From assembly GCA_012838995.1 (NCBI GenBank), contig DUOD01000003.1:10602-74601 (forward strand): a stretch of 64,000 bases of DNA, in the 5' to 3' direction. Within the stretch, counting starts at the first letter, position 1. Each line of letters begins with the position of its first letter. Source of the stretch: Clostridiales bacterium (GTDB lineage: Bacteria; Bacillota; Clostridia; DUOD01). Below, piece after piece: positions 19,865 to 34,363 of the stretch. Under the pieces are notes generated by a model. That model had not been told where the DNA came from and made no database searches. It saw only the letters and a list, made by a program, of their open reading frames with translations. A program made the position numbers and the translations under genes.

Positions 19865-20215
19865 GTGAAACTTCGACAAATAATTGAAATACTAGACGGA
19901 CAACTCATTTGCGGAAGTCAGCTTTTAGATACTGAAATAAAATCTGCCTGTGGTTCTGATCTGATGAGCGATGTTTTGCTCTTTGTCAAAAAAAACAGCA
20001 TCCTGCTGACGGGCTTAACCCATCCTCAGGTTATAAGGACGGCAGAGATGCTTGATGTTAAGGCGATTGTACTGGTTAGGGGAAAAAGACCCAGTCCCAT
20101 GTTAATTCAAATGGCCCGGGAAAACAATATTGCCATCGTTACCACCGACTATACCTTATACACCGCCTGCGGCAAGCTGTACGTTAATGGTCTGTCGGGG
20201 GAAATGGACGAATAA
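19865..20215 (+). CDS. DRTGG-domain protein (hydrogenase-associated regulatory module)
   Basis: 116 aa of DRTGG type (...VLLTGLTHPQVIRTAEMLDVKAIVLVRGKRPSP.MI..A.ENNIAIV.T). Start is GTG. Confidence 0.7.
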   Translation: MKLRQIIEILDGQLICGSQLLDTEIKSACGSDLMSDVLLFVKKNSILLTGLTHPQVIRTAEMLDVKAIVLVRGKRPSPMLIQMARENNIAIVTTDYTLYTACGKLYVNGLSGEMDE

Positions 20216-20218
20216 ATT

Positions 20219-20656
20219 ATGAAAAACAACAAACCGTCGATTAAGCAAACATTCGATATATCGGCAGGGAACTTCTCGGTTGCAGGCAGTGCGTCAAGCA
20301 GAATAAAAAACATGCTTAAACGGATTGGTATAGACGACAAAATAATCCGTCGGGTTGCTGTGGCCACCTATGAGGCGGAAATGAACATCGCAATCCATTC
20401 CCACGGTGGAACGCTATGTATTGAAATTTTCCCGGATGTAATAATTATAGTTGCAAAGGACAAAGGTCCCGGCATCAAGAATGTAGCCTTAGCCATGGAG
20501 GAGGGGTATTCAACGGCAACGGATGAAATCAGGGCAATGGGCTTTGGTGCGGGTATGGGATTGCCGAATATGAAAAAATGTTCTGACGAATTTGATATAC
20601 AATCAACATTGGGTGTTGGTACCAGGGTGGAAATGAAAATGTATAATAAAGAATAA
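20219..20656 (+). CDS. SpoIIAB/RsbW-like anti-sigma-factor-type serine kinase (HATPase_c_2)
   Basis: 145 aa with a GHKL ATPase core: N-box AVATYEAEMNIAIHS and G-boxes DKGPGI and GFGAGMGL. Confidence 0.7.
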   Translation: MKNNKPSIKQTFDISAGNFSVAGSASSRIKNMLKRIGIDDKIIRRVAVATYEAEMNIAIHSHGGTLCIEIFPDVIIIVAKDKGPGIKNVALAMEEGYSTATDEIRAMGFGAGMGLPNMKKCSDEFDIQSTLGVGTRVEMKMYNKE

Positions 20657-20673
20657 TAATAGGGGATGAGGCT

Positions 20674-21984
20674 ATGAATAATAACTACTTCCATTCAGTA
20701 AGGCTTGATAAGGAAAAATGCAAGGGCTGTACAAATTGCATAAAACGATGCCCCACTGAAGCCATTAGGGTAAGGGACGGCAAAGCGAAAATAATGGATG
20801 AGCGGTGTATCGACTGTGGTGAATGTATAAGGATATGCCCGTATCATGCCAAGAAGGCCGTTACCGATGATTTGAAGGCCCTTGATAAATACAAGTACAA
20901 TATAGCGCTACCCGCCCCGACTCTGTATGGACAGTTTAAGGGGCTGACCGATATCAATTATGTATTATCCGCCCTGTTATCCCTTGGCTTTGATGATGTT
21001 TATGAGGTAGCTTGGGCTGCGGATATTGTATCTGCTAAAATACGTTCCCTTATTAAGGATAAAAAAGGAAAGAAACCCTATATATCATCGGCTTGTCCTG
21101 CCATTGTAAGGCTTATACAAGTAAGGTTTCCAAATCTTATAGATAATATAATAGATGTTCAATCCCCCATGGAGGTTGCGGGGTTATTGGCAAGAAAGGA
21201 GGCGGCGGGAAAATACTCTCTTGACGATAAAGACATAGGCGTGTTTTTTATCACTCCCTGTGCAGCCAAAATGACCAGCATCAAAAATCCGGTGGGCATG
21301 GCAAAGTCATATGTAAATGGTGCCATTGCCATACCCAGTGTATATGGGATGCTGTCTTCAACCATGAAAAAGGAAAACGTTAAGAAACTTCAACGTTCAA
21401 CGGCCTACGGAATCGGCTGGGCAAATTCCGGCGGAGAAAGCAATGCCTTAGGTGTGGAAAACTATCTTGCAGTGGATGGCATCCAAAATGTTATTAAAGT
21501 ACTCGATGAGATAGAGAACAACAAGTTAAATGACCTGGATTTCTTCGAAGGGTTGGCCTGTACCGGTGGTTGCGTCGGGGGTCCCCTTACCGTAGAGAAC
21601 GGTTTTGTTGCAAAAAACAGGATAAAGAGGCTTGTTAAAAACAATGAAAAGGTAAGGCTGTCACAGCATCAATTAGATGATGTGTGTAAAGATATTGCTA
21701 TCCATTACTCGGAAGAAATTTTGCCCAAAAGCATCATGAAGCTGGATGACGATGTGGCCAAAGCCATAGAAAAGATGAACTTAATTGACAAAATATACGA
21801 CGATCTTCCGGGTCTTGATTGCGGTTCGTGCGGCTCCCCCAGTTGTAAGACTCTGGCGGAGGATATAGTAAGGGGCTATGCTTCGGAGATGGACTGTATA
21901 TTTAAGCTCCGTGAAAAGGTGAAGGGACTGGCGCAACAGATGATTGAATTGTATAATAAAATACCTACCGGCAAAGAACGATAG
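20674..21984 (+). CDS. HydS-like putative sensory [FeFe]-hydrogenase paralog (2x[4Fe-4S] + H-cluster domain with non-catalytic substitutions + C-terminal Cys4 cluster)
   Basis: The N-terminus has CKGCTNCIKRCP and CIDCGECIRICP. The H-cluster motifs are altered: L1 is SSACPAIV where the canonical motif is TSCCPGW, L2 is TPCAAK where it is MPCxxK, and L3 is EGLACTGGCVGGP with Leu in place of Met. The C-terminus has CGSCGSPSC. Confidence 0.8.
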   Translation: MNNNYFHSVRLDKEKCKGCTNCIKRCPTEAIRVRDGKAKIMDERCIDCGECIRICPYHAKKAVTDDLKALDKYKYNIALPAPTLYGQFKGLTDINYVLSALLSLGFDDVYEVAWAADIVSAKIRSLIKDKKGKKPYISSACPAIVRLIQVRFPNLIDNIIDVQSPMEVAGLLARKEAAGKYSLDDKDIGVFFITPCAAKMTSIKNPVGMAKSYVNGAIAIPSVYGMLSSTMKKENVKKLQRSTAYGIGWANSGGESNALGVENYLAVDGIQNVIKVLDEIENNKLNDLDFFEGLACTGGCVGGPLTVENGFVAKNRIKRLVKNNEKVRLSQHQLDDVCKDIAIHYSEEILPKSIMKLDDDVAKAIEKMNLIDKIYDDLPGLDCGSCGSPSCKTLAEDIVRGYASEMDCIFKLREKVKGLAQQMIELYNKIPTGKER

Positions 21985-21996
21985 GGGTGTATGCTA

Positions 21997-22338
21997 ATGA
22001 AGGTAAAGGTTTTGTGTGAAAAGCTCGGTCTGTCCGTAATAGCAGGAAATGAATATTTAAACAGGGAAATAAAATCGGGGTATTGTTGCGATCTTCTTAG
22101 TTTAGTGATGTCCAAGGCTGACAAGGGATGTTGCTGGGTTACGGTACAAACCCATCCAAATATTGTGGCTGTGGCTTCCCTGCTGGAGGTGGGATGTATA
22201 ATAATTCCCGAAGCCATTCAAGTGGAAGATAATACGCGCAAAAAGGCGGAGCAGGAGGGTATTCCCATCCTTTCTTCGGATATGAACGGATTTGAGCTGT
22301 GCGGGAGATTGTATAGCCTACTGGGGGAGGGCCGATAG
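21997..22338 (+). CDS. DRTGG-domain protein (second copy)
   Basis: ~113 aa, paralogous to the gene at 19865. A GGGGTG RBS lies 8 nt upstream of ATG 21997. Confidence 0.7.
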   Translation: MKVKVLCEKLGLSVIAGNEYLNREIKSGYCCDLLSLVMSKADKGCCWVTVQTHPNIVAVASLLEVGCIIIPEAIQVEDNTRKKAEQEGIPILSSDMNGFELCGRLYSLLGEGR

Positions 22339-23052
22339 TTGAGCAAATGGTCCTATGATCTCCATATTCATACAGCTCTATCCCCTTGTGCCTCTGACGA
22401 TATGACTCCCAACAATATTGTTAACATGTCCGTATTAAAGGGTTTGGATGTGATAGCCATAACCGATCATAACAGCTGCAACAACGCCCAGGCCGTTATA
22501 AAGGTGGGGTTTGATAAGGGTCTTAAAGTTTTGCCCGGTATGGAGGTGCAAACCCAGGAAGAAGTCCACTTGCTTTGTTTGTTTGGAGACATAGACAGGG
22601 CGATGGGTTTTCAGGATATCTTATATAAAACATGGCCTTACCTGCCCAATGACCCACAGCTTTTCGGCGAACAGTTAATTTTCGATGATAAGGACAATAT
22701 TATCGGTAAAGAGGACAGGCTGCTTCTAACATCGGTAAACATGTCCATAGAAGAGGTATGTTATCATGTGACTGAAAGGGAGGGCATAGTAATACCCGCC
22801 CATATAGACAGACAGTCGTACAGCATTATCTCAAACCTCGGGTTTATACCCGAAACGGCAAATTTCACCCTTGTGGAAATAAGCAAGGATTGTGACTTTG
22901 ATGAGCTTCGTAAAAAATATCCTTATCTGAAAAATTATTATCCTATTATCAATTCAGATTCCCACTCCCTTGGGTCCATCATGGAACCCATTCATTTCCT
23001 TACTCCCCATCATTTAAATTTATTGCGAACGGTTATGAAAAAAATAAGATAA
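22339..23052 (+). CDS. PHP-domain metal-dependent phosphoesterase
   Basis: PHP motifs YDLHIHTALSPCAS and DVIAITDHN are present. Start is TTG with a GGGGGAGGG RBS 7 nt upstream, and the start overlaps the preceding stop. Confidence 0.75.
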   Translation: MSKWSYDLHIHTALSPCASDDMTPNNIVNMSVLKGLDVIAITDHNSCNNAQAVIKVGFDKGLKVLPGMEVQTQEEVHLLCLFGDIDRAMGFQDILYKTWPYLPNDPQLFGEQLIFDDKDNIIGKEDRLLLTSVNMSIEEVCYHVTEREGIVIPAHIDRQSYSIISNLGFIPETANFTLVEISKDCDFDELRKKYPYLKNYYPIINSDSHSLGSIMEPIHFLTPHHLNLLRTVMKKIR

Positions 23053-23208: not shown

Positions 23209-23688
23209 ATGTCTCGATGCAAAAATTGCACCAATAAACTAAGTTTTGAAAAATTAGAAAAAGTAATTGAAAAATACAAGGATAAGGAAGGGGCATTAAT
23301 GCCGATAATGCACGAAGCTCAAGAAATCTTCGGCTATCTTCCTATAGAAGTGCAGAATTATATAGCAGAAGCATTGAAAATACCCATAACCGATGTATAT
23401 GGCGTAGCCACCTTTTATTCCCAGTTTTCTTTGAAGCCAAAGGGAAAATATAATATTTCCGTTTGTATGGGCACCGCTTGTTATGTCAAAGGGGCCCAAA
23501 AAATATTAGACAGGCTTAAAGAGGAATTAAATGTAGAAGTCGGAGAAACCACAGAAGACGGAAAATTTACCATTACCGCCACCCGTTGTCTGGGAGCTTG
23601 TGGATTGGCACCTGTAATAATGGTAAATGATGATGTCTACGGCAGATTGGTAGAGGATGATATACCGGGCATTATCAAAAAGTATTAA
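23209..23688 (+). CDS. NADH-linked [FeFe]-hydrogenase NuoE-like [2Fe-2S] subunit (HndA/HydC type)
   Basis: NuoE/thioredoxin-like fold with CMGTACYVKG and CLGACGLAP. A GAGGGGGGAG RBS lies upstream. Confidence 0.9.
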   Translation: MSRCKNCTNKLSFEKLEKVIEKYKDKEGALMPIMHEAQEIFGYLPIEVQNYIAEALKIPITDVYGVATFYSQFSLKPKGKYNISVCMGTACYVKGAQKILDRLKEELNVEVGETTEDGKFTITATRCLGACGLAPVIMVNDDVYGRLVEDDIPGIIKKY

Positions 23689-23690
23689 AA

Positions 23691-24233
23691 ATGCGCGACT
23701 TATCCCTTCATATACTGGATATCGTTCAGAATTCCATAGATGCGGCCGCTGATTTTATACAAGTAACGGTAGATGTACAACCGAAAGAAGACCGGCTGGT
23801 AATAACCGTTAGCGATAACGGGAGGGGAATGGATGAAGCGCTGGTGGAAAAAATAACCGATCCCTTCGTAACGGGAAGGACTACCAGAAAAGTAGGTCTT
23901 GGGTTGGCTTTACTGGAAGCGGCGGTGCAAAGAAGCGACGGCGATCTTAGCATCAGCTCCCGGCCGGGAGTGGGGACAACGGTAACGGCGCGGTTTAGAT
24001 ACCGACATATAGACAGGCCTCCCATGGGGGATTTAACGCAAACAATAATCAGTTTGATCCTATGTAATCCTGATATAGATTTTTTATTTCGTTATATATA
24101 CGGCCAAAGGGAATTCAAACTGGATACCAGGGAGATAAGGGCACATATCGGCGATATGGACATCAACGATATAAGGATTGTTGATTGGATAAGGGAATAT
24201 GTGCAGGCAGGAATAGAAGGAAAAATTGATTAA
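23691..24233 (+). CDS. stand-alone histidine-kinase-like ATPase (HATPase_c) protein embedded in hydrogenase operon
   Basis: N-box HILDIVQNSIDA, then SDNGRGMD and GLGLALLEA. There is no DHp/His-phosphotransfer domain and no sensor domain. Confidence 0.7.
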   Translation: MRDLSLHILDIVQNSIDAAADFIQVTVDVQPKEDRLVITVSDNGRGMDEALVEKITDPFVTGRTTRKVGLGLALLEAAVQRSDGDLSISSRPGVGTTVTARFRYRHIDRPPMGDLTQTIISLILCNPDIDFLFRYIYGQREFKLDTREIRAHIGDMDINDIRIVDWIREYVQAGIEGKID

Positions 24234-24251
24234 CTAATGGAGGTGTCGAGA

Positions 24252-24632
24252 GTGAAGAGTATAAAAGAGCTGGAAGAAATAAGGAAAAAAACTTTGGAAA
24301 AGGTCAATCTACGGAAGGACAGGAAAGGTACCAGAGTGGTTGTGGGTATGGCCACATGTGGCATAGCCGCAGGCGCAAGACCGGTACTTTTATCATTCGT
24401 AGAAGAGATAAATAAGCGAAAATTAATGGATGTGACCGTATCTCAAACGGGGTGCATAGGTGTATGTAGATTGGAACCCATTGTAGAAGTTTATAAACCG
24501 GGACAGGATAAAGTAACATATGTAAAGATGACACCGGATAAGGTTGCAAAGGTGGTATCTGAACATATAGTCAATGACAGGCCGGTTATAGAATATACAA
24601 TAGGATATGTAGAAAATAGACAGAACAAGTAA
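24252..24632 (+). CDS. thioredoxin-like [2Fe-2S] ferredoxin subunit (HndB type)
   Basis: Cys ligands lie in VVGMATCGIAAG and TGCIGVCRLEP. A GGAGGTG RBS lies 6 nt upstream of GTG 24252, and the ORF track start 24237 is an alternative. Confidence 0.75.
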   Translation: MKSIKELEEIRKKTLEKVNLRKDRKGTRVVVGMATCGIAAGARPVLLSFVEEINKRKLMDVTVSQTGCIGVCRLEPIVEVYKPGQDKVTYVKMTPDKVAKVVSEHIVNDRPVIEYTIGYVENRQNK

Positions 24633-24653: not shown

Positions 24654-26450
24654 ATGGATTTTTTTCGTTCTCATGTTTTGATATGTGGCGGGACCGGATG
24701 CCATGCATCGGGTTCTGATGATCTGATAGAGGAATTTGACAGGCTCATTGAAGAGAAAAAATTGCAAAGGGAAGTAAAGGTAGTAAGAACAGGTTGTTTT
24801 GGTCTTTGCGAATTAGGCCCTGTGGTGATTGTCTATCCCGAAGGAGCGTTTTACAGCAGGGTTAATAAAGAGGACGTACAGGAAATAGTAGAGGAACATT
24901 TAATAAAGGGTAGGATAGTAAAGAGGCTGTTATACCACGATAGCATCGCCAAAGACGATACAATAAAATCTTTATCGGATGTTGGTTTCTACAAAAAGCA
25001 GAAGAGAATAACTTTGAGAAACTGTGGTGTAATAGATCCCGAGAACATCGACGAATATATCGCCTTTGACGGATATAAAGCCCTGGCCAAGGTACTGACG
25101 GAAATGTCCAGAGAAGAAGTTATCCAAACCATTAAATTGTCCGGCCTTAGGGGAAGGGGCGGCGGTGGTTTCCCTACGGGTTTGAAATGGGAGTTCACCT
25201 ATAGGGCCAAGGGCGACAAGAAGTATGTATGCTGTAACGCCGACGAGGGAGACCCTGGTGCCTTCATGGACAGGAGTATCCTTGAAGGTGATCCCCATTC
25301 AGTGCTGGAAGCCATGGCCATAGCAGGTTATGCGGTAGGCTCTGATCAAGGGTATATATATGTCAGGGCGGAATATCCCATAGCGGTAAGAAGGCTTAAC
25401 ATTGCCATTGAACAGGCCAGGGAATACGGACTGTTGGGCAATAATATTTTCGGTTCGGGGTTTAATTTCGACATCGAACTTAGACTGGGTGCAGGTGCTT
25501 TTGTCTGTGGAGAGGAAACGGCGCTAATGGCTTCAATAGAAGGCAAAAGAGGAGAACCCAGACCCAGGCCTCCGTTCCCTGCCAGCAAGGGTTTGTTTGG
25601 CAAGCCAACCTTGCTCAATAATGTGGAAACCTATGCCAATATTCCCCCGATAATTCTAAAGGGTAGCGAATGGTTTTCCTCAATAGGAACGGAAGGCAGT
25701 AAAGGTACCAAGGTATTCGCCCTGGGCGGCAACATAAATAACACCGGTTTGTTGGAGATACCCATGGGTACCACTCTAAGGGAAATTGTATATGAAATAG
25801 GCGGTGGCATACCCGGCGGTAAGGAATTTAAAGCGGCTCAAACCGGAGGACCGTCCGGCGGTTGTATACCCGCTTCCCACCTGGATACGCCCATAGACTA
25901 TGACTCTCTTATGGAAGTCGGGTCGATGATGGGTTCGGGCGGATTAATAGTCATGGATGAAGATACATGTATGGTGGATATAGCAAGGTTTTTCCTGGAT
26001 TTTACCGTTGAAGAATCCTGCGGTAAGTGTCCGCCCTGCAGAATAGGTACCAAGAGGATGCTTGAGATACTGGATAGGATAACCAGTGGTAAGGGTCAGG
26101 AAGGTGACATCGAAAAACTTGAAACTCTGGCAAAAAATATTAAGGCTTCCGCCCTGTGCGGACTGGGGCAAACGGCACCAAACCCGGTATTGAGCACCTT
26201 GAGGTATTTCAGGGATGAATACGAAGCCCATATAAAAGAAAAGAAATGTCCGGCAGGGGCATGTACGGCCCTTTTAACCTACACCATTATCGATGATCTG
26301 TGCAAGGGTTGTAGCTTATGTGCAAAGCATTGTCCTGTAGAGGCGATAAGCGGGAAACCAAAATCTCCTTATGTTATTGACCAGGAAAAATGCATTAAAT
26401 GCGGTGTATGTATGGAAAAATGCCCCTTCAAGGCAATAGAGAAGAAATAG
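24654..26450 (+). CDS. NADH-binding NuoF-like flavoprotein subunit of [FeFe]-hydrogenase (HndC/HydB type)
   Basis: An N-terminal thioredoxin-like [2Fe-2S] domain precedes the NuoF core, with GLRGRGGGGFPTGLKWEF (FMN/NADH), a SLBB domain and C-terminal 2x[4Fe-4S] (CKGCSLCAKHCP, CIKCGVCMEKCP). Confidence 0.9.
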   Translation: MDFFRSHVLICGGTGCHASGSDDLIEEFDRLIEEKKLQREVKVVRTGCFGLCELGPVVIVYPEGAFYSRVNKEDVQEIVEEHLIKGRIVKRLLYHDSIAKDDTIKSLSDVGFYKKQKRITLRNCGVIDPENIDEYIAFDGYKALAKVLTEMSREEVIQTIKLSGLRGRGGGGFPTGLKWEFTYRAKGDKKYVCCNADEGDPGAFMDRSILEGDPHSVLEAMAIAGYAVGSDQGYIYVRAEYPIAVRRLNIAIEQAREYGLLGNNIFGSGFNFDIELRLGAGAFVCGEETALMASIEGKRGEPRPRPPFPASKGLFGKPTLLNNVETYANIPPIILKGSEWFSSIGTEGSKGTKVFALGGNINNTGLLEIPMGTTLREIVYEIGGGIPGGKEFKAAQTGGPSGGCIPASHLDTPIDYDSLMEVGSMMGSGGLIVMDEDTCMVDIARFFLDFTVEESCGKCPPCRIGTKRMLEILDRITSGKGQEGDIEKLETLAKNIKASALCGLGQTAPNPVLSTLRYFRDEYEAHIKEKKCPAGACTALLTYTIIDDLCKGCSLCAKHCPVEAISGKPKSPYVIDQEKCIKCGVCMEKCPFKAIEKK

Positions 26451-26479
26451 AGCAAATAAGCGGAAAAGGAGTGAAAGGG

Positions 26480-28222
26480 ATGGATATGGTAACAATAACC
26501 ATAGACGGAAAGGAAGTAAAAGTTCCCAGCAATTATACCGTTCTCGAAGCTGCAAGAAGCGTTAATATAGATATACCCACCCTTTGTTATTTAAAGGGTA
26601 TAAACGAAATAGGTGCATGCAGGATGTGTCTTGTGGAAGTTAAGGGGGCAAGGTCGCTGCAGGCTGCCTGTGTCTATCCGGTGTCGGACGGCTTAGAGGT
26701 CGTGACCAATTCCCCCGCGGTGAGGGAGGCAAGAAAGGTTAATTTGGAGCTTATTCTGTCCAACCATGACAGAAAATGCCTGACTTGTGTCAGAAACGGC
26801 AATTGTGAGCTCCAAAAACTGGCGGAACAATTAAATGTACAAGAGATCAGGTTTGACGGTGAAAACATTAAACGAAATATTGATAATGCATCGCCTTCTA
26901 TAGTAAGGGATGCAAACAAGTGCATCCTGTGTAGAAGATGTGTCAGCGTATGCCACGATGTACAGGGTGTTGGGGTAATCTCGGCAACTGAGCGGGGCTT
27001 TGATACAATAATAGAGCCTGTTTTCAACAAAAGCCTGGATGAGGTGCCCTGCGTTAAGTGTGGACAGTGTATTATGGCTTGTCCTGTAGGCGCGCTAAGG
27101 GAAAAGGATGATATTGATAAGGTATGGGATGCCATCAATGATCCCGAGCTTCATGTTGTGGTACAGACGGCACCGGCAATAAGGGTTTCTCTGGGTGAAG
27201 AATTCGGCCTGCCCATGGGGACCAGGGTTACCGGAAAAATGGTATCCGCATTAAGGAAGCTAGGCTTTGATAAGGTGTTCGATACGGATTTCGCAGCCGA
27301 CCTAACTATAATGGAGGAAGGAACAGAACTTTTAGATAGGTTGAAAAATGGCGGCAAGCTGCCACTTATTACATCCTGCAGCCCTGGATGGATAAAATAT
27401 TGCGAGCATTTCCATCCGGACATGTTGGAAAATTTATCAACCTGTAAGTCTCCCCATGAAATGTTGGGGGCGTTGGTTAAATCCTACTACGCCGAAAAAG
27501 AAGGGATAGATCCCTCCAAGATAGTCGTGGTTTCAATCATGCCCTGTACGGCTAAAAAGTTTGAGGCCCAAAGACCGGAATTGAGCGCAACGGGCTATCC
27601 TGATGTGGATATTGTATTAACCACCAGAGAGCTGGCCCGTATGATAAAGGAGGCCGGTATAGACTTTAATACTTTAGAGGATGAAGACTTTGATGATACG
27701 CTGGGCATATCAACGGGTGCCGGGGTTATATTCGGAGCCACCGGCGGTGTTATGGAGGCAGCCTTAAGGACGGTAGCTGAATTGGCCACGGGTAAAGAGT
27801 TGAAAAATATTGAATATAAAAATGTAAGGGGTATAGACGGCGTAAAGGAAACCCAGGTGGAAATGGGCGATATGAAGATTAATGCTGCCGTTGCCCATGG
27901 TTTGGGAAATGCAAAAAAATTGCTGGATAAGGTAAAATCCGGTGAAAAGGAATACCATTTTATTGAGATAATGGGTTGCCCCGGCGGCTGTGTAACAGGG
28001 GGTGGACAGCCCATACTAAGCGCTAAGGAGCTTATGGATATAGATCCCAAGGTTGAAAGGGCCAAGGCTATTTATTCCGAGGATGAATCCTTAACCTTTA
28101 GGAAGTCCCATGAAAACCCGCAGATTAAAGCATTATACGAAGAATTTTTGAAGGAACCCAACAGTCATAAGGCCCATCAACTCCTTCATACCCATTACAA
28201 AAAAAGGATTAAATACTGCTAA
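26480..28222 (+). CDS. hydA: [FeFe]-hydrogenase catalytic subunit (HydA/HndD type) with atypical L1 motif TSCSPGW
   Basis: An N-terminal [2Fe-2S] plant-type ferredoxin domain, a His-ligated [4Fe-4S] and 2x[4Fe-4S] precede the H-cluster domain. The H-cluster domain has L1 TSCSPGW, L2 MPCTAKKFE and L3 EIMGCPGGCVTGGGQP. An AAAAGGAGTG RBS lies upstream. Confidence 0.9.
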   Translation: MDMVTITIDGKEVKVPSNYTVLEAARSVNIDIPTLCYLKGINEIGACRMCLVEVKGARSLQAACVYPVSDGLEVVTNSPAVREARKVNLELILSNHDRKCLTCVRNGNCELQKLAEQLNVQEIRFDGENIKRNIDNASPSIVRDANKCILCRRCVSVCHDVQGVGVISATERGFDTIIEPVFNKSLDEVPCVKCGQCIMACPVGALREKDDIDKVWDAINDPELHVVVQTAPAIRVSLGEEFGLPMGTRVTGKMVSALRKLGFDKVFDTDFAADLTIMEEGTELLDRLKNGGKLPLITSCSPGWIKYCEHFHPDMLENLSTCKSPHEMLGALVKSYYAEKEGIDPSKIVVVSIMPCTAKKFEAQRPELSATGYPDVDIVLTTRELARMIKEAGIDFNTLEDEDFDDTLGISTGAGVIFGATGGVMEAALRTVAELATGKELKNIEYKNVRGIDGVKETQVEMGDMKINAAVAHGLGNAKKLLDKVKSGEKEYHFIEIMGCPGGCVTGGGQPILSAKELMDIDPKVERAKAIYSEDESLTFRKSHENPQIKALYEEFLKEPNSHKAHQLLHTHYKKRIKYC

Positions 28223-28366: not shown

Positions 28367-28735
28367 ATGATGGGAATGAGGAAGATGGAATATATAAAGG
28401 TTATTATCTGCGGACTGGCTACAGGATTGTTTAACGGTTTGTTCGGGGCCGGCGGTGGTATAGTTTTAGTTCCGTCCCTGGTATTGTTGCTGGGCGTTGA
28501 GGAACATGATGCCCATGCCACCGCCATTTCAGTTATACTGCCCCTCACCCTGATAAGCGCTTTTATATACTATACCAAGGGCATTGCTAATTGGGATATC
28601 ACCTTGAGGGTGGCTTTAGGCGGAATGTTGGGGGGTTATATAGGGGCAAAGGTAATGAACCGGTTATCGGCAAATCTTCTGAGAAAGATTTTTTCAATAT
28701 TTATGGTGGCGGCAGCCATTAGGATGATGGTGTAA
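28367..28735 (+). CDS. TSUP/TauE-SafE family half-size (4-TM) membrane protein
   Basis: DUF81 pattern with GLFNGLFGAGGGIVLVPSLVLLLG. The exact start is ambiguous among ATG 28367, 28376 and 28385. Confidence 0.7.
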   Translation: MMGMRKMEYIKVIICGLATGLFNGLFGAGGGIVLVPSLVLLLGVEEHDAHATAISVILPLTLISAFIYYTKGIANWDITLRVALGGMLGGYIGAKVMNRLSANLLRKIFSIFMVAAAIRMMV

Positions 28736-29103
28736 TGCTGTTGTTTTTGATCGGTTTGTTATCCGGTATCATAGGCGGCATGGGGATAGGGGGCGGCACC
28801 ATATTAATACCTGCCTTGATATTGGTCGTTGGTCTAAAACAGCATATGGCCCAAAGTGTAAATCTTTTATCCTTTATTCCTACCGCAATTATTGCATTGA
28901 CAATACATTGGAAAAATAAGAACATTAAATGGAAGCTGGCCCTTCATATAATCCTTTTCGGAATTGTTGGAGCGGTTATAGGCTCATATCTGGCGGTCTG
29001 CCTTGCGCCGGGATCTTTAAGGAGAATTTTCGGTGCATTTTTACTAATTATGGGAGTGTATGAATTTTTCAGGAAGGGGAAGGTAGGCGAAAAAAAGACG
29101 TAA
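28735..29103 (+). CDS. TSUP/TauE-SafE family half-size (4-TM) membrane protein, second half
   Basis: Contains GIIGGMGIGGGTILIPALILVVG. The start overlaps the upstream stop in a TAATG arrangement, consistent with a split two-gene TSUP transporter. Confidence 0.7.
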   Translation: MLLFLIGLLSGIIGGMGIGGGTILIPALILVVGLKQHMAQSVNLLSFIPTAIIALTIHWKNKNIKWKLALHIILFGIVGAVIGSYLAVCLAPGSLRRIFGAFLLIMGVYEFFRKGKVGEKKT

Positions 29104-29273: not shown

Positions 29274-30605
29274 GTGGATTTCAAGTTATTAACATTTAAA
29301 GGGGGAATCTATCCACCCCATAACAAATCGGCTACCGAAAAAAAGCCAATAAAGGACGCGAAAGAAGGCAAACAAGTTATTATCCCTATGCAGCAACATG
29401 CAGGGGCACCCTGTAAGCCTTTGGTTTCCAAGGGTGATTATGTAAAAGTAGGTCAAAGGATAGGTGAACCCGATGGATTTGTGAGCGCCCCCGTTCATTC
29501 CAGCGTATCGGGTACTGTGACATCGGTTGGGCCCATGCTCCATCCTGCGGGTCAAAGGGTGATGTCGGTTGTAATTGAGCCCGATGGGTTAAACGCAATT
29601 GATGAGGGCATAGCACCAAAGGGTGACATTGACACCTTAAGTCCGAATGATATTAAATCCATTATCCAAGAATCCGGCATTGTGGGACTGGGCGGCGGGG
29701 TTTTTCCTACCCATGTAAAGTTATCGCCTCCGGAAGGGAAAAAGATAGATGCCATAATATTAAACGGTGCGGAATGCGAGCCTTATCTGACCGCCGATCA
29801 TAGGTTGATGCTGGAACGCCCGGAAGACGTTGTCTACGGACTGCGTGCCATGTTGAGGGCTACAGGCGTGAAAAGGGGATATATCGGCATTGAAAACAAT
29901 AAAAAGGATGCCATTGAAAGAATAAGGAAATGTATAAAGGACTCTCCCAATATAGAGCTTAAAGTATTGAAAACCAAATACCCCCAGGGCGCGGAAAAAC
30001 AGCTTATTTATGCCATTACCAAGCGTGTTGTGCCTTCCGGCGGATTACCCATGGATGTCGGAGTAATTGTAAATAATGTAGGAACGGCAGCGGCAATAGC
30101 CGAAGCTATTAAAACAGGTATGCCGTTAATCCAAAGGATAGTCACTGTCGCCGGTGATGGGGTTAAAGAGCCACAAAATCTAAGGGTAAAATTGGGCACG
30201 ACTTTCAAAGACGTGATTAATCAATGTGGCGGTATGGTAGGAGATGTGGGAAAGATAATCATGGGGGGCCCCATGATGGGAATCGCCCAATACGATTTAA
30301 ACGTTCCCGTCATTAAGTGCACTTCCGGTATATTGGTGTTAAGCAGGCAAAGCGCTTCACTCCCCGAGCAGGGACCATGTATTAGATGCGGCAAATGTAT
30401 AACCGTGTGTCCCGTAAACCTCATGCCGTTATTAATCAGCCAGTATATCCTGGATGATAACTTTGAACAGGCTGAAAAACACCATGCTTTAGACTGTATT
30501 GAATGCGGTTCATGTTCATATATTTGTCCGGCAAAAAGGCCGTTGTTACAGTCCATAAGGGTTGCCAAGGGTGTGATTATGGCCAACAAGAAGAAATGTA
30601 ACTAG
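29274..30605 (+). CDS. rnfC: Rnf electron transport complex subunit C
   Basis: RnfC family with an NADH-binding SLBB-like domain and C-terminal 2x[4Fe-4S] (CIRCGKCITVCP, CIECGSCSYICP). Start is GTG with an AAGTGAGGTG RBS. Confidence 0.9.
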   Translation: MDFKLLTFKGGIYPPHNKSATEKKPIKDAKEGKQVIIPMQQHAGAPCKPLVSKGDYVKVGQRIGEPDGFVSAPVHSSVSGTVTSVGPMLHPAGQRVMSVVIEPDGLNAIDEGIAPKGDIDTLSPNDIKSIIQESGIVGLGGGVFPTHVKLSPPEGKKIDAIILNGAECEPYLTADHRLMLERPEDVVYGLRAMLRATGVKRGYIGIENNKKDAIERIRKCIKDSPNIELKVLKTKYPQGAEKQLIYAITKRVVPSGGLPMDVGVIVNNVGTAAAIAEAIKTGMPLIQRIVTVAGDGVKEPQNLRVKLGTTFKDVINQCGGMVGDVGKIIMGGPMMGIAQYDLNVPVIKCTSGILVLSRQSASLPEQGPCIRCGKCITVCPVNLMPLLISQYILDDNFEQAEKHHALDCIECGSCSYICPAKRPLLQSIRVAKGVIMANKKKCN

Positions 30606-30617
30606 GGGGTCATTGAA

Positions 30618-31550
30618 ATGAATAAACTAATAGTTTCATCATCGCCTCATATTCTTTCCAAAAATTCGATTCAACGAATAATGCTCGATGTCATCATAGC
30701 TCTAATGCCCGCTCTTGTAGCAGCAATTATATTTTTTGGACATAGGGCATTGGTTATTACTATAGTATCGGTGGCAGCTGCCGTTTTGACCGAAGCAGTG
30801 TTACAAAAGCTTTGTAAAAAACCGGTTACCGTCAATGATTTAAGTGCGGTGGTTAGCGGAATATTAATTGCATTTAATTTACCGGTGAGTGTACCCTTAT
30901 GGATGCCCGTAGTGGGTTCGGTTTTTGCCATGGCACTAGTGAAGTTCGTCTTTGGTGGTTTGGGACATAATTTCATGAACCCTGCCTTGGCTGCACGGGC
31001 CTTATTAACAGTATCCTGGCCTGCCAGGATGGCGGGTGCGGTATGGACCCAGCCGGGCAACATAGACGTTATCGGTATTGCAACACCTTTGGAGCTTTTA
31101 AAAGCAGGAGAAAATCTGCCTGGTATATATGATCTTTTCATGGGAAACGTGGCGGGTTGTCTGGGGGAAACCTCTGCCCTTGCTTTATTGATAGGCGGTA
31201 TATACCTTCTTTTAAGGGGTGTTATTAACTGGAGAACGCCGGTTACCTTTATAGGCAGTGTGGCTTTGATTAGCTGGATATTTGGCGTAAATCCATTGTA
31301 TAGCATCCTTGCCGGAGGTTTAATGCTGGGTGCCCTGTTCATGGCTACCGATTATGCCACTGCTCCGGTAACGCCCAAGGGGCAGTTAATAATGGGTGTT
31401 GGATGCGGGGTAATAACTACTTTTATCCGCTTGTTCGGAGGTTACCCCGAAGGGGTAAGTTATTCAATATTGTTTATGAATGTTATGACACCACTGATTG
31501 ATAAATTTACCATGCCTAAAAAATTTGGTGGGGTGAAGACACATGCGTGA
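30618..31550 (+). CDS. rnfD: Rnf complex subunit D (NqrB-like)
   Basis: A polytopic membrane protein of the RnfD/NqrB family, carrying the FMN-attachment region. Confidence 0.9.
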   Translation: MNKLIVSSSPHILSKNSIQRIMLDVIIALMPALVAAIIFFGHRALVITIVSVAAAVLTEAVLQKLCKKPVTVNDLSAVVSGILIAFNLPVSVPLWMPVVGSVFAMALVKFVFGGLGHNFMNPALAARALLTVSWPARMAGAVWTQPGNIDVIGIATPLELLKAGENLPGIYDLFMGNVAGCLGETSALALLIGGIYLLLRGVINWRTPVTFIGSVALISWIFGVNPLYSILAGGLMLGALFMATDYATAPVTPKGQLIMGVGCGVITTFIRLFGGYPEGVSYSILFMNVMTPLIDKFTMPKKFGGVKTHA

Positions 31551-32115
31551 CATATTAAACCTAGGAATTAGATTATTCATAATAACGGTGGTTGCTGTTT
31601 TTTGTCTGGCTATTACCAATGCATATACTAAAGAGCCCATAAGAATAACCGCGGAAAATGCAAATAATGAGGTCAGACGCATGGCATTGCCGCAGGCCCA
31701 AAATTTTGAAGTTGTGGATATACAAGGCAAAAATATCGATGGTTTCAGCAATATTCTTGAAGTATATACCGGCCTTGATCCTCAGGGCCAGGTAATAGGC
31801 TATACCGTAAAGACCATATCCAAGGGTTATGGCGGGGATGTTGAAGTTATTGTCGGAATAAAGAAAGACGGTAAGATATCCAGTGTACAAATAGGAGATC
31901 ATAGCGAAACGCCCGGGTTGGGATCCAAGGCAACCGAACCTGGGTTTATTGATCAGTTTGTAGGCAAATCAGCTTCCGAATCTCTTGCATTGTCCAAGAG
32001 TTCCGCTGCTGCCGACAACGAGATACAGGCTGTTACAGGAGCTACCGTGACATCCCAAGCGGTAATAAACGGTGTTAATACGGCCATCCAGTTTTACAAT
32101 GAAATATTAAAGTAG
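31543..32115 (+). CDS. rnfG: Rnf complex subunit G (FMN-binding)
   Basis: An N-terminal TM helix precedes an FMN_bind domain ending AVTGATVTSQAV. The gene overlaps rnfD by 8 nt. Confidence 0.85.
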   Translation: MRDILNLGIRLFIITVVAVFCLAITNAYTKEPIRITAENANNEVRRMALPQAQNFEVVDIQGKNIDGFSNILEVYTGLDPQGQVIGYTVKTISKGYGGDVEVIVGIKKDGKISSVQIGDHSETPGLGSKATEPGFIDQFVGKSASESLALSKSSAAADNEIQAVTGATVTSQAVINGVNTAIQFYNEILK

Positions 32116-32161
32116 AAATATAAATATTTGGGTTTTACAATGTATTTTGGAGGTGTAATCC

Positions 32162-32755
32162 TTGTTATTACGGACTTTAACCAACGGTATAATAAAAGAA
32201 AACCCGATTTTCAGGTTGGTGTTGGGTATGTGTCCTACCTTGGCTGTTACAACGGCAGCCATTAACGGTCTGGGTATGGGTTTTGCAACGATGTTGGTGC
32301 TCATTGGTTCCAATATTGTTATTTCATTATTAAAGAAATTTATTCCCGATAAGGTGAGGATACCGGCTTACGTAGTGGTAATAGCCTCTTTTACAACCAT
32401 AGTGGGTATGTTTTTAAAGGCCTTTGCCCCAGAACTTGACAAGTCACTGGGACTGTTTATACCATTGATAGTTGTAAATTGTTTAATATTGGCCAGGGCG
32501 GAAGCCTTTGCTTCTCAAAATTCCGTACTCCATTCTATTTTGGACGGCTTGGGTATGGGTCTGGGCTTTACATTGGCTTTAACGATCCTTGGGATTATCA
32601 GGGAGCTAATCGGTGCAGGCAGCATATTCGGTATAAATGTTATGGGTAGCGCCTACGAACCCGCTATTATAATGATTTTACCTCCAGGGGCCTTTTTAAC
32701 CCTCGGTTTGCTACTAGGGCTAATAAATAAGCTGACTGTCAAGTCGAGTTCGTAG
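32162..32755 (+). CDS. rnfE: Rnf complex subunit E
   Basis: RnfE/NqrD family 6-TM protein. Start is TTG with a GGAGGTG RBS 6 nt upstream. Confidence 0.9.
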   Translation: MLLRTLTNGIIKENPIFRLVLGMCPTLAVTTAAINGLGMGFATMLVLIGSNIVISLLKKFIPDKVRIPAYVVVIASFTTIVGMFLKAFAPELDKSLGLFIPLIVVNCLILARAEAFASQNSVLHSILDGLGMGLGFTLALTILGIIRELIGAGSIFGINVMGSAYEPAIIMILPPGAFLTLGLLLGLINKLTVKSSS

Positions 32756-32774
32756 ATGAAAGGGGCTGAGATAA

Positions 32775-33368
32775 ATGGTCGCAACTTCTGTTTCTAAGAT
32801 TTTTATAATATTGCTGAGTTCAATATTGGTCAATAATTTTGTAATGTCGAGATTTTTGGGCATCTGTCCATTTTTAGGCGTATCTAAAAAGGTAGAAACA
32901 GCGGTGGGCATGGGTGCGGCTGTTACCTTTGTAATGGCCTTAGCATCGGTTATAACATACGCGATACAATATGCAATTTTGGAACCTTTGGGGATTGGAT
33001 ATTTGCAAACAATTGCTTTTATACTTGTTATCGCCACCCTGGTACAATTTGTGGAAATGGTCATCCAAAAGAGCAGTCCCTCTTTGTATCAATCACTGGG
33101 CGTGTATCTGCCTTTGATAACCACCAATTGTGCGGTTCTTGGTGTGGCAATATTGAATATACAAGAACAGTATACCTTACTTGAAACGTTGATTAACGGA
33201 ATAGGCGCGGCATTGGGCTTTACGTTGGCAATTGTGTTATTTGCCGGCATAAGGGAAAGGTTGGAAACGGCGCCTATACCCAAATCCCTTAAGGGATTCC
33301 CCATTGCCCTTATTACTGCAGGGCTGATGTCCATTGCCTTTTTAGGATTCCAAGGATTGATAAAGTAA
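32775..33368 (+). CDS. rnfA: Rnf complex subunit A
   Basis: RnfA/NqrE family 6-TM protein, paralogous to rnfE. Confidence 0.9.
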   Translation: MVATSVSKIFIILLSSILVNNFVMSRFLGICPFLGVSKKVETAVGMGAAVTFVMALASVITYAIQYAILEPLGIGYLQTIAFILVIATLVQFVEMVIQKSSPSLYQSLGVYLPLITTNCAVLGVAILNIQEQYTLLETLINGIGAALGFTLAIVLFAGIRERLETAPIPKSLKGFPIALITAGLMSIAFLGFQGLIK

Positions 33369-33382
33369 AGGGGTGAAAAGCT

Positions 33383-34363
33383 ATGCTTGAAAATATATTA
33401 TGGCCGGTGGTCAGCCTGGGGATCATGTCTTTGGTATTCGGTGTAGGTCTGGCCTTGGCATCAAAGAAATTTGCTGTGGAAATAGATCCCAAGGTTGAAG
33501 AAGTAAGGCAAGTGCTGCCGGGGGCCAACTGCGGCGGATGCGGATTTGCCGGTTGCGACAGTTATGCGGAGGCAGTAGTTGCCGGCGAAGCTTCGGCAGC
33601 GGCATGTCCGCCGGGAGGCAGTGATGTGATGGCAAAGATAGCCGATATATTAGGTATACCATTGGATGCCCAAGAAAGAAATGTGGCCTCGGTTATGTGT
33701 GCAGGTCCTTGTACGGAGGAAAACAAAAAATACCAGTACCATGGTATAGCCGGCTGCAGAGCTGTAAGTATGTTATCAGGAGGAAACAAAGGCTGTAGCT
33801 ATGGATGTTTAGGATTGGGTACCTGTAAGAATAACTGTCCCTTTGATGCAATTTCCATATCAGGAGATGGGATAGCGGTGGTGAATGAAGATAAGTGCAC
33901 CGGATGCGGTAGATGTACTGAAGTTTGCCCCAGGGGCATTATACAACTTGTGCCGGCATCCCAAGGCGTAAGGGTACTGTGTTCCAGCAAAGACAGGGGC
34001 AAAACGGTGAAGGAATATTGTAAGGTAGGATGTATTGGCTGTCAAATATGCGTCAGAGCATGTAAGTTCGATGCCATAACATTTGAAGACAATCTCCCTA
34101 AAATCGACTATGATAAGTGCACGGGTTGCATGGTATGTGTTGAAAAATGCCCGACAAAGTCGATACATGGGGATTTATCCAAGAGGAAGACCGCTTCCAT
34201 CGACCAGGATGGGTGTATTGGATGTACCGTCTGTATAAAGGCATGTAAGTTTGATGCCATAGAAGGAGAAAGGAAGCAAAAACATAAGGTGTTGGAGGAT
34301 AAATGCGTAGGATGCGGACTGTGCGCAGTTAAATGTCCAAAGGATGCAATTACAATTCAATAG
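33383..34363 (+). CDS. rnfB: Rnf complex subunit B (polyferredoxin)
   Basis: An N-terminal TM helix is followed by multiple [4Fe-4S] CxxCxxCxxxCP motifs. Confidence 0.9.
   Translation: MLENILWPVVSLGIMSLVFGVGLALASKKFAVEIDPKVEEVRQVLPGANCGGCGFAGCDSYAEAVVAGEASAAACPPGGSDVMAKIADILGIPLDAQERNVASVMCAGPCTEENKKYQYHGIAGCRAVSMLSGGNKGCSYGCLGLGTCKNNCPFDAISISGDGIAVVNEDKCTGCGRCTEVCPRGIIQLVPASQGVRVLCSSKDRGKTVKEYCKVGCIGCQICVRACKFDAITFEDNLPKIDYDKCTGCMVCVEKCPTKSIHGDLSKRKTASIDQDGCIGCTVCIKACKFDAIEGERKQKHKVLEDKCVGCGLCAVKCPKDAITIQ

What the first reader, a model, noticed from the sequence alone, without database searches (positions are those of the whole stretch)
27371..27391. Catalytic [FeFe]-hydrogenase HydA carries TSCSPGW instead of the near-universal TSCCPGW L1 motif
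In HydA (26480..28222) the L1/P1 H-cluster motif reads ITSCSPGW, with Ser encoded by AGC at 27380..27382. The canonical motif is TSCCPGW. In that motif the two adjacent cysteines are the proton-relay Cys and a ligand of the H-cluster [4Fe-4S] sub-cluster (Cys299 and Cys300 in C. pasteurianum CpI numbering). Anchoring the alignment on PGW, the replaced residue is the second one, the cluster-ligating position. L2 (MPCTAKKFE) and L3 (EIMGCPGGCVTGGGQP) are fully canonical, including both conserved Met residues. A single nucleotide separates AGC from TGC. There are three possible explanations. It could be a natural Ser-ligated or otherwise unusual H-cluster. It could be an inactivating point mutation of the main hydrogenase, which would be interesting next to the intact sensory and regulatory module. 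It could be a base-call error.
Basis: partly seen in the sequence, partly recalled or inferred. Interest (0 to 1): 0.75.

Follow-up and report, generated by a model that had tools for sequence, protein, structure and literature searches.

The report
Known serine-for-cysteine variant in hydrogenase HydA
The serine in place of a cluster-binding cysteine in this hydrogen-producing enzyme is real, but it is the normal, conserved signature of a large enzyme lineage whose characterised member (Acetobacterium woodii HydABC) is fully active, so it is ordinary and already described.

Summary
Window 27371-27391 encodes T-S-C-S-P-G-W, with AGC (Ser301) where CpI has Cys300, a ligand of the H-cluster [4Fe-4S] sub-cluster. 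L2, L3, the relay Cys and the proton-pathway residues are all intact.

It is neither a mutation nor a base-call error, and it is not new:
- All 120 closest database homologues (72-100% identity) have TSCSPGW.
- 77 of 80 genomic loci from other species (56-73% identity) have Ser, encoded by all six serine codons.
- Four independent metagenome assemblies of the same organism carry the identical AGC.
- About 29 of the 150 nearest 50%-identity cluster representatives are Cys-Ser, so "near-universal TSCCPGW" is overstated.

The closest solved structure is A. woodii HydA1 of the electron-bifurcating HydABC complex (64% identical), which has the identical ITSCSPGW. Katsyv et al. 2023 (JACS, PMC10021017) state that this Ser301 replaces a cysteine ligand of the cluster. 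They report no apparent effect on the H-cluster FTIR signature and activities similar to the Cys-type T. kivui enzyme.

The gene scores well above the NCBIfam cut-off for "NADH-dependent [FeFe] hydrogenase, group A6". It sits in a HydC/HydD-like/HydB/HydA operon next to an Rnf cluster.

Verdict: already known, low interest.

The parts
26480..28222 (+). hydA: catalytic subunit of a group A6 (A. woodii-type) NADH/ferredoxin-dependent [FeFe] hydrogenase, 580 aa. Many database entries call it from ATG 26399 (607 aa), which overlaps hydB.
   Evidence: Pfam finds Fer2_4, NADH-G_4Fe-4S_3, Fer4, Fe_hyd_lg_C and Fe_hyd_SSU. NCBIfam NF040763 scores 960.8 bits against a cut-off of 765. The best PDB hit is A. 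woodii HydA1 7q4v_A at E 1.4e-253, 64% identical.
27371..27391 (+). L1/P1 motif TSCSPGW. Cys300 (27377-27379) is the proton-relay Cys. Ser301 (27380-27382, AGC) takes the place of the [4Fe-4S]H ligand Cys.
   Evidence: It equals Ser301 of A. woodii HydA1 and Cys299 of T. kivui HydA1, as described by Katsyv et al. 2023.
27539..27565 (+). L2 motif MPCTAKKFE (Cys356 is a ligand; Met354 and Lys359 are conserved).
   Evidence: invariant in alignment A1.
27965..28012 (+). L3 motif EIMGCPGGCVTGGGQP (Cys500 and Cys504 are ligands; Met498 is conserved).
   Evidence: invariant in alignment A1.
24654..26450 (+). hydB: NuoF-like FMN/NAD(H) subunit with an N-terminal [2Fe-2S] domain and a C-terminal 2x[4Fe-4S] domain.
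   Evidence: Pfam finds Complex1_51K, NADH_4Fe-4S, 2Fe-2S_thioredx and Fer4. The best PDB hit is A. woodii HydB 7q4v_B at 1011.6 bits.
24237..24632 (+). Small thioredoxin-like [2Fe-2S] protein (HydD/HndB-like).
   Evidence: Weak Pfam 2Fe-2S_thioredx hit and NCBIfam 2Fe-2S ferredoxin hit below cut-off. The assignment as HydD/HndB-like is from position in the operon and my own knowledge, and was not tested.
23691..24233 (+). Stand-alone HATPase_c protein between hydC and the hydD-like gene.
   Evidence: Pfam HATPase_c at 7.8e-21. Conserved in sibling assemblies. Its role was not tested.
23209..23688 (+). hydC: NuoE-like [2Fe-2S] subunit.
   Evidence: Pfam 2Fe-2S_thioredx at 8.3e-58. The best PDB hit is A. 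woodii HydC 7q4v_C at E 2e-58.

Best explanation
The window encodes an ordinary, functional A. woodii-type (NCBIfam 'group A6') electron-bifurcating/confurcating [FeFe] hydrogenase, HydABC. In this lineage the H-cluster [4Fe-4S] sub-cluster is held by three cysteines (Cys356, Cys500 and Cys504) plus Ser301, in place of the fourth cysteine (CpI Cys300). Cys300 of the window protein, equivalent to CpI Cys299, remains the proton relay to the adt amine. The Glu/Ser/Glu/Arg proton pathway is intact. Catalysis should therefore run as in canonical group A enzymes: H2 and 2H+ + 2e- interconvert at the H-cluster, and electrons pass through the HydA F-clusters to HydB/HydC, where NAD(H) and ferredoxin are coupled. 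What is shown here: the sequence, its conservation, and homology of all three subunits to the solved A. woodii complex. What comes from the literature: the Ser is modelled as the cluster ligand, and the A. woodii enzyme is active with normal FTIR bands. What is inferred: the window enzyme behaves the same way.
For: Motif and intact L2/L3. Proton-pathway residues (CpI E279, E282, R286, S319, C299) are conserved in the gapless alignment and invariant in alignment A1. TSCSPGW occurs in 120 of 120 homologues at 72-100% identity, including the isolates Mahella australiensis and Acetivibrio clariflavus. It occurs in 77 of 80 genomic loci at 56-73% identity, with Ser encoded by TCA, AGC, TCT, TCG, AGT and TCC. 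AGC is identical in 4 independent assemblies. A. woodii HydA1 (7q4v/8a5e) has ITSCSPGW, and window S301 aligns with its Ser301 and with Cys299 of T. kivui. Katsyv et al. [quoted passage not shown] NCBIfam NF040763 scores 960.8 against a cut-off of 765. HydB and HydC best match A. woodii HydB and HydC. No alternative Cys co-varies with the Ser.
Against: No activity or spectroscopy exists for this particular protein, which comes from an uncultured Clostridiales MAG. Ser-Fe coordination in A. woodii rests on a cryo-EM model of moderate resolution, so actual O-Fe bonding is not proven, as opposed to an open or water-bound site. Identity to A. woodii HydA1 is only 64%.
Confidence: 0.93

Rival explanations
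1. Ser301 is not a real Fe ligand. The [4Fe-4S]H sub-cluster is three-Cys coordinated with a water, hydroxide or open site, or the alkoxide ligation measurably shifts the cluster potential. In either case the Ser-type enzymes would be functionally tuned (catalytic bias, potential matching for bifurcation, O2 or CO sensitivity) relative to Cys-type enzymes.
For: Ser is under strong purifying selection across the clade, with all six codons in use. Cys and Ser appear to have interchanged several times in group A (about 13 parsimony steps over 121 H-domains), which could reflect adaptive toggling. No compensating Cys exists. The only published assessment is FTIR plus bulk activity, which does not measure the cluster potential.
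Against: Katsyv et al. model the Ser as the ligand and see no apparent spectroscopic or activity difference from the Cys-type T. kivui enzyme. The deep NJ topology behind the switch count is unreliable.
Confidence: 0.12
2. An inactivating TGC-to-AGC point mutation of the main hydrogenase in this strain, making it a pseudo-enzyme.
For: One nucleotide separates AGC from TGC.
Against: The Ser is invariant in 120 of 120 close homologues and present in 77 of 80 distant loci, encoded by both the AGY and TCN codon families. The rest of the protein is under normal conservation. The A. woodii enzyme with the same motif is active.
Confidence: 0.01
3. A base-call or assembly error at 27380.
For: None beyond the single-base distance to TGC.
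Against: Four independent assemblies from different samples (JGI 3300002898; ENA ERZ941574, ERZ773358, ERZ18327520) have the same 21-nt motif sequence and only 0-1 differences over the 1824-nt gene. Homologues at 88-90% identity also encode Ser.
Confidence: 0.01

Closest known systems
Acetobacterium woodii HydA1 of the electron-bifurcating HydABC(D) hydrogenase (PDB 7q4v, 7q4w, 8a5e; Katsyv et al. 2023, PMC10021017)
   Same: Same domain architecture and 64% identity. The L1 motif ITSCSPGW is identical, with Ser301 at the same residue number. L2 and L3 are the same. The HydB and HydC partners are the best PDB matches of the neighbouring genes.
   Different: The window comes from an uncultured Clostridiales/Mahellales-like MAG, not an acetogen. 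Its operon is preceded by a HydS-like/PHP/DRTGG module and followed by Rnf. There are no biochemical data for this protein.
Thermoanaerobacter kivui HydA1 (PDB 8a6t, 8bew)
   Same: The same HydABC complex type and architecture, at 53% identity.
   Different: It has the canonical FTSCCPSW, with Cys299 ligating the cluster where the window has Ser301.
Clostridium pasteurianum CpI (PDB 4xdc, 1feh and others), the prototypical monomeric group A enzyme
   Same: The same M3 domain layout, H-domain, L2 and L3 motifs and proton pathway. The alignment around L1 has no gaps.
   Different: CpI has TSCCPGW (C299 relay, C300 ligand). It is monomeric and ferredoxin-dependent, with no HydB/HydC partners.
Melainabacteria trimeric confurcating hydrogenases noted by Di Rienzi et al. 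2013 (PMC3787301)
   Same: That paper also recorded TSCSPGW in place of TSCCPAW in L1 of trimeric confurcating [FeFe] hydrogenases.
   Different: Those two proteins also lose a Cys in L3. The window protein has an intact L3.

Membership tests
NCBIfam NF040763, NADH-dependent [FeFe] hydrogenase, group A6 | Full-length HMM score above the curated cut-off (765 bits) | tested here: met
   960.8 bits, E 2e-289, profile positions 1-571 of 571.
Catalytic group A [FeFe] hydrogenase (H-cluster signatures of Vignais) | L1 motif TSCCPxW with both the relay Cys and the ligand Cys | tested here: not met
   The window has TSCSPGW. The relay Cys is present and the ligand Cys is replaced by Ser. The same deviation occurs in the active A. 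woodii enzyme, so the strict motif is too narrow a definition.
Catalytic group A [FeFe] hydrogenase (H-cluster signatures of Vignais) | L2 MPCxxKxxE and L3 ExMxCxxGCxxG | tested here: met
   MPCTAKKFE and EIMGCPGGCVTG are present and invariant in A1.
Catalytic group A [FeFe] hydrogenase | Proton-transfer pathway residues (CpI C299, E279, S319, E282, R286) | tested here: met
   All are conserved in the gapless alignment to CpI. Window C300, E280, S320, E283 and R287 are invariant in A1.
Electron-bifurcating HydABC complex | Co-encoded NuoF-like HydB (FMN/NAD site plus extra Fe-S domains) and NuoE-like HydC | tested here: met
   The adjacent genes 24654-26450 and 23209-23688 carry the Pfam domains. 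Their best PDB hits are A. woodii HydB (1011.6 bits) and HydC (E 2e-58).
Electron-bifurcating HydABC complex | NAD(H)- and ferredoxin-coupled H2 turnover | not testable with these tools
   This needs enzyme assays. It is inferred from homology to A. woodii HydABC.
Ser-ligated [4Fe-4S]H variant (A. woodii type) | Ser at the position of CpI C300 / T. kivui C299, with no alternative Cys available | tested here: met
   Window S301 aligns to Ser301Aw and Cys299Tk. The only conserved H-domain Cys columns are 300, 356, 500 and 504. Cys322 is equally frequent in Ser-type and Cys-type enzymes.
Ser-ligated [4Fe-4S]H variant (A. woodii type) | Actual Ser O-gamma to Fe coordination | not testable with these tools
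   Reported from the cryo-EM model of A. woodii HydABC.

The most novel reading that the evidence does not exclude
The Cys-to-Ser exchange at the [4Fe-4S]H ligand may not be neutral. It could be an adaptive switch, toggled repeatedly in group A evolution, that tunes the H-cluster potential or catalytic bias of bifurcating hydrogenases. This property has not been measured: the one published comparison used only FTIR and bulk activity.
Probability: 0.15. Interest if true: 0.45.

Novelty: already known. Interest (0 to 1): 0.08.

Why it matters
It matters little as a discovery. The Ser ligand is a published feature of a structurally and spectroscopically characterised enzyme and a clade-wide signature. 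The practical value is for annotation: TSCSPxW should not be read as a defective H-cluster motif, and motif-based screens that require TSCCP will wrongly discard a large lineage of bifurcating hydrogenases. One modest open question remains, namely whether Ser ligation tunes the redox properties of the H-cluster.

Tried and rejected
1. A first regex tally missed 6 of 80 loci and 39 of 150 representatives. I redid it with direct translation and BLASTP column mapping.
2. I looked for a compensating cysteine or a strongly co-varying residue that could replace the lost ligand. None was found; the best non-motif column differs by only 0.47 in frequency.
3. I considered selenocysteine for the TGA at the relay-Cys codon in L071. 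There is no SECIS-like hairpin: MFE is -12.8 against -11.1 +/- 3.3 kcal/mol in homologous regions. It is a single TGA on a 2-kb MAG contig, so I judged it a probable error or pseudogene.
4. I did not run structure prediction. Models carry no cofactor and their coordinates cannot be read here, so Ser-Fe geometry could not be measured.
5. Literature searches for 'TSCSP', 'TSCCP + serine' and 'serine ligand + H-cluster' returned only Katsyv 2023 and Di Rienzi 2013 as relevant. The CpII and CpIII papers concern other motif variants.
6. One search call failed on a syntax error.

Full report
**Observation.** Window 27371-27391 reads ACA TCC TGC AGC CCT GGA TGG, which is T-S-C-S-P-G-W, with AGC (Ser) at 27380-27382. 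The ORF also contains SIMPCTAKKFE (L2) and EIMGCPGGCVTGGGQP (L3). Alignment to solved homologues supports the ATG at 26480 as the start, giving 580 aa. In that numbering the motif is T298-S299-C300-S301-P302-G303-W304. Pfam finds the M3-type architecture plus the C-terminal small-subunit domain: Fer2_4, NADH-G_4Fe-4S_3, 2x Fer4, Fe_hyd_lg_C and Fe_hyd_SSU.

**Which residue is replaced.** phmmer alignments around L1 have no gaps. The window's LITSCSPGW lies opposite CpI's MFTSCCPGW (C299/C300) and T. kivui HydA1's MFTSCCPSW (C298/C299). The proton-pathway residues (CpI E279, E282, R286, S319) are conserved and invariant among relatives.

**Is it a private mutation or an error?** No, on several grounds.
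- All 120 best database homologues (72-100% identity) carry TSCSPGW. They include proteins named 'NADH-dependent [FeFe] hydrogenase, group A6' or HndD from Mahella australiensis, Acetivibrio clariflavus and many MAGs.
- Among 80 loci from species-representative genomes (56-73% identity; Bacillota of many families, Desulfotruncus, Holdemania, Faecalicatena, Syntrophus and deltaproteobacterial MAGs), 77 encode Ser at this position and 2 encode Cys (L049, L072). The remaining locus, L071, has TGA at the neighbouring relay-Cys codon.
- Ser is encoded by all six codons: TCA 21, AGC 16, TCT 12, TCG 9, AGT 8, TCC 8. Use of both the AGY and TCN families shows long-standing selection for Ser itself.
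- Four independent assemblies from different samples carry this very gene with 0-1 nucleotide differences in 1,824 nt, and the 21-nt motif sequence is identical in all of them, including AGC.

**How common is it?** In an exhaustive HMMER search of 1.84 billion 50%-identity cluster representatives, I mapped the best 150 hits onto the query. About 105 are Cys-Cys and about 29 are Cys-Ser at these two positions. All representatives above 55% identity are Cys-Ser, and 7 of 10 at 50-55% are. 'Near-universal TSCCPGW' is therefore an overstatement, because the Ser form is the signature of a large lineage. A rough NJ tree of 121 H-domains, with the motif column masked, needs about 13 parsimony steps for the Cys/Ser character. 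That hints at repeated exchange, but the deep NJ topology is not reliable.

**What is known.** The closest solved structure is A. woodii HydA1 of the electron-bifurcating HydABC complex (7q4v/7q4w/8a5e; E 1.4e-253; 64% identity). Its L1 is the identical ITSCSPGW, and its Ser301 aligns with the window's Ser301. Katsyv et al. [quoted passage not shown] Di Rienzi et al. 2013 (PMC3787301) had already noted TSCSPGW in trimeric confurcating hydrogenases of Melainabacteria. The variant is thus documented, structurally modelled and associated with an active enzyme.

**No hidden substitute ligand.** Comparing 19 Ser-type and 91 Cys-type representatives, the only conserved H-domain Cys columns are 300, 356, 500 and 504. 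Cys322 (in 'STCKSP') is about as frequent in Ser-type (63%) as in Cys-type (58%) enzymes, and no other column co-varies strongly. This is consistent with three-Cys-plus-Ser coordination.

**Family and context.** HydA scores 960.8 bits against NCBIfam NF040763 'NADH-dependent [FeFe] hydrogenase, group A6', where the cut-off is 765. The adjacent NuoF-like gene (24654-26450) and NuoE-like gene (23209-23688) best match A. woodii HydB (1011.6 bits) and HydC (E 2e-58). Between them lie a stand-alone HATPase_c protein and a small thioredoxin-like [2Fe-2S] protein. Upstream is a HydS-like putative sensory hydrogenase with DRTGG, HATPase_c_2 and PHP neighbours. Downstream are two half-size TauE genes and a full RnfCDGEAB cluster. 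This is a coherent NADH/ferredoxin/H2 energy-metabolism locus of a fermentative Clostridia-class MAG; the 100%-identical database entry is named 'Clostridiales bacterium' and the 90% relative 'Mahellales bacterium'.

**Mechanism.** Most likely (0.93) this is a normal, active HydABC hydrogenase. Its [4Fe-4S]H is ligated by Cys356, Cys500 and Cys504 (one of which also bridges to the 2Fe sub-site) and by Ser301. Cys300 relays protons. The sequence, its conservation and the homology are shown here. The Ser ligation and the activity come from the A. woodii literature. Equivalence of the window enzyme is an inference. One rival is not excluded (about 0.12): the Ser could subtly tune the cluster's potential or bias, or might not be truly Fe-bound, because only FTIR and bulk activity have been compared. 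The inactivating-mutation and base-call-error readings are each at about 0.01 or less.

**Verdict.** The finding is already known and of low interest (0.08).

Noticed in passing
L071 1242-1244 (contig CAYYOY010000302.1, uncultured Oscillospiraceae MAG, 2056 bp): The homologous hydA has an in-frame TGA exactly at the proton-relay Cys codon (LPMITS*SPGW). It is the only in-frame stop in 571 codons. A Sec at this position would be remarkable, but the downstream 63 nt fold no better than in homologues (-12.8 against -11.1 +/- 3.3 kcal/mol) and the contig is short. A probable error or pseudogene.
   Followed up: partly
L051, L064, L068, L077, L080 (hydA L2 motif): Five Ser-type HydA homologues from gut or rumen MAGs have L2 = AIPCTAKKFE, that is Ile instead of the conserved Met (CpI Met353) next to the bridging CO. 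This is a second natural deviation from the textbook motifs.
   Followed up: no
window 19865-23052: A sensory-type module lies directly upstream of hydCBA: DRTGG protein (19865-20215), HATPase_c_2 anti-sigma-like kinase (20219-20656), a HydS-like [FeFe] hydrogenase homologue (20674-21984), a second DRTGG protein (21991-22338) and a PHP-domain protein (22339-23052). The HydS-like protein has SSACP in L1 (relay Cys replaced by Ala, ligand Cys kept), TPC in L2 and a C-terminal PF04060 Fe-S domain.
   Followed up: partly
window 28367-29103: Two adjacent 122-aa ORFs each match half of the Pfam TauE/SafE profile, in swapped order. The first matches profile positions 127-237 and the second 1-113. They are conserved as two genes in four sibling assemblies, which suggests a split or heterodimeric half-size TauE rather than a frameshift.
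   Followed up: no
window 23691-24233: A 180-aa protein consisting only of a histidine-kinase-type ATPase domain (HATPase_c), with no HisKA or sensor domain, is inserted between hydC and the small [2Fe-2S] gene inside the hydrogenase operon. It is conserved in sibling contigs.
   Followed up: no
window 26399-26479: Several public gene calls start hydA at ATG 26399 (607 aa; P0002, P0003), overlapping the end of hydB by 52 nt. Alignment to A. woodii and T. kivui HydA1 supports the ATG at 26480 (580 aa; P0001).
   Followed up: partly
P0121 (representative library hit, 4122 aa): The top-scoring representative is a 4,122-residue protein with 7 separate stretches matching HydA. It may be a giant multi-hydrogenase fusion or a mis-called gene.
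   Followed up: no
window 29274-34363: A complete Rnf cluster (RnfC, D, G, E, A, B) lies immediately downstream of the hydrogenase operon. This fits a coupled ferredoxin/NADH/H2 economy.
   Followed up: no
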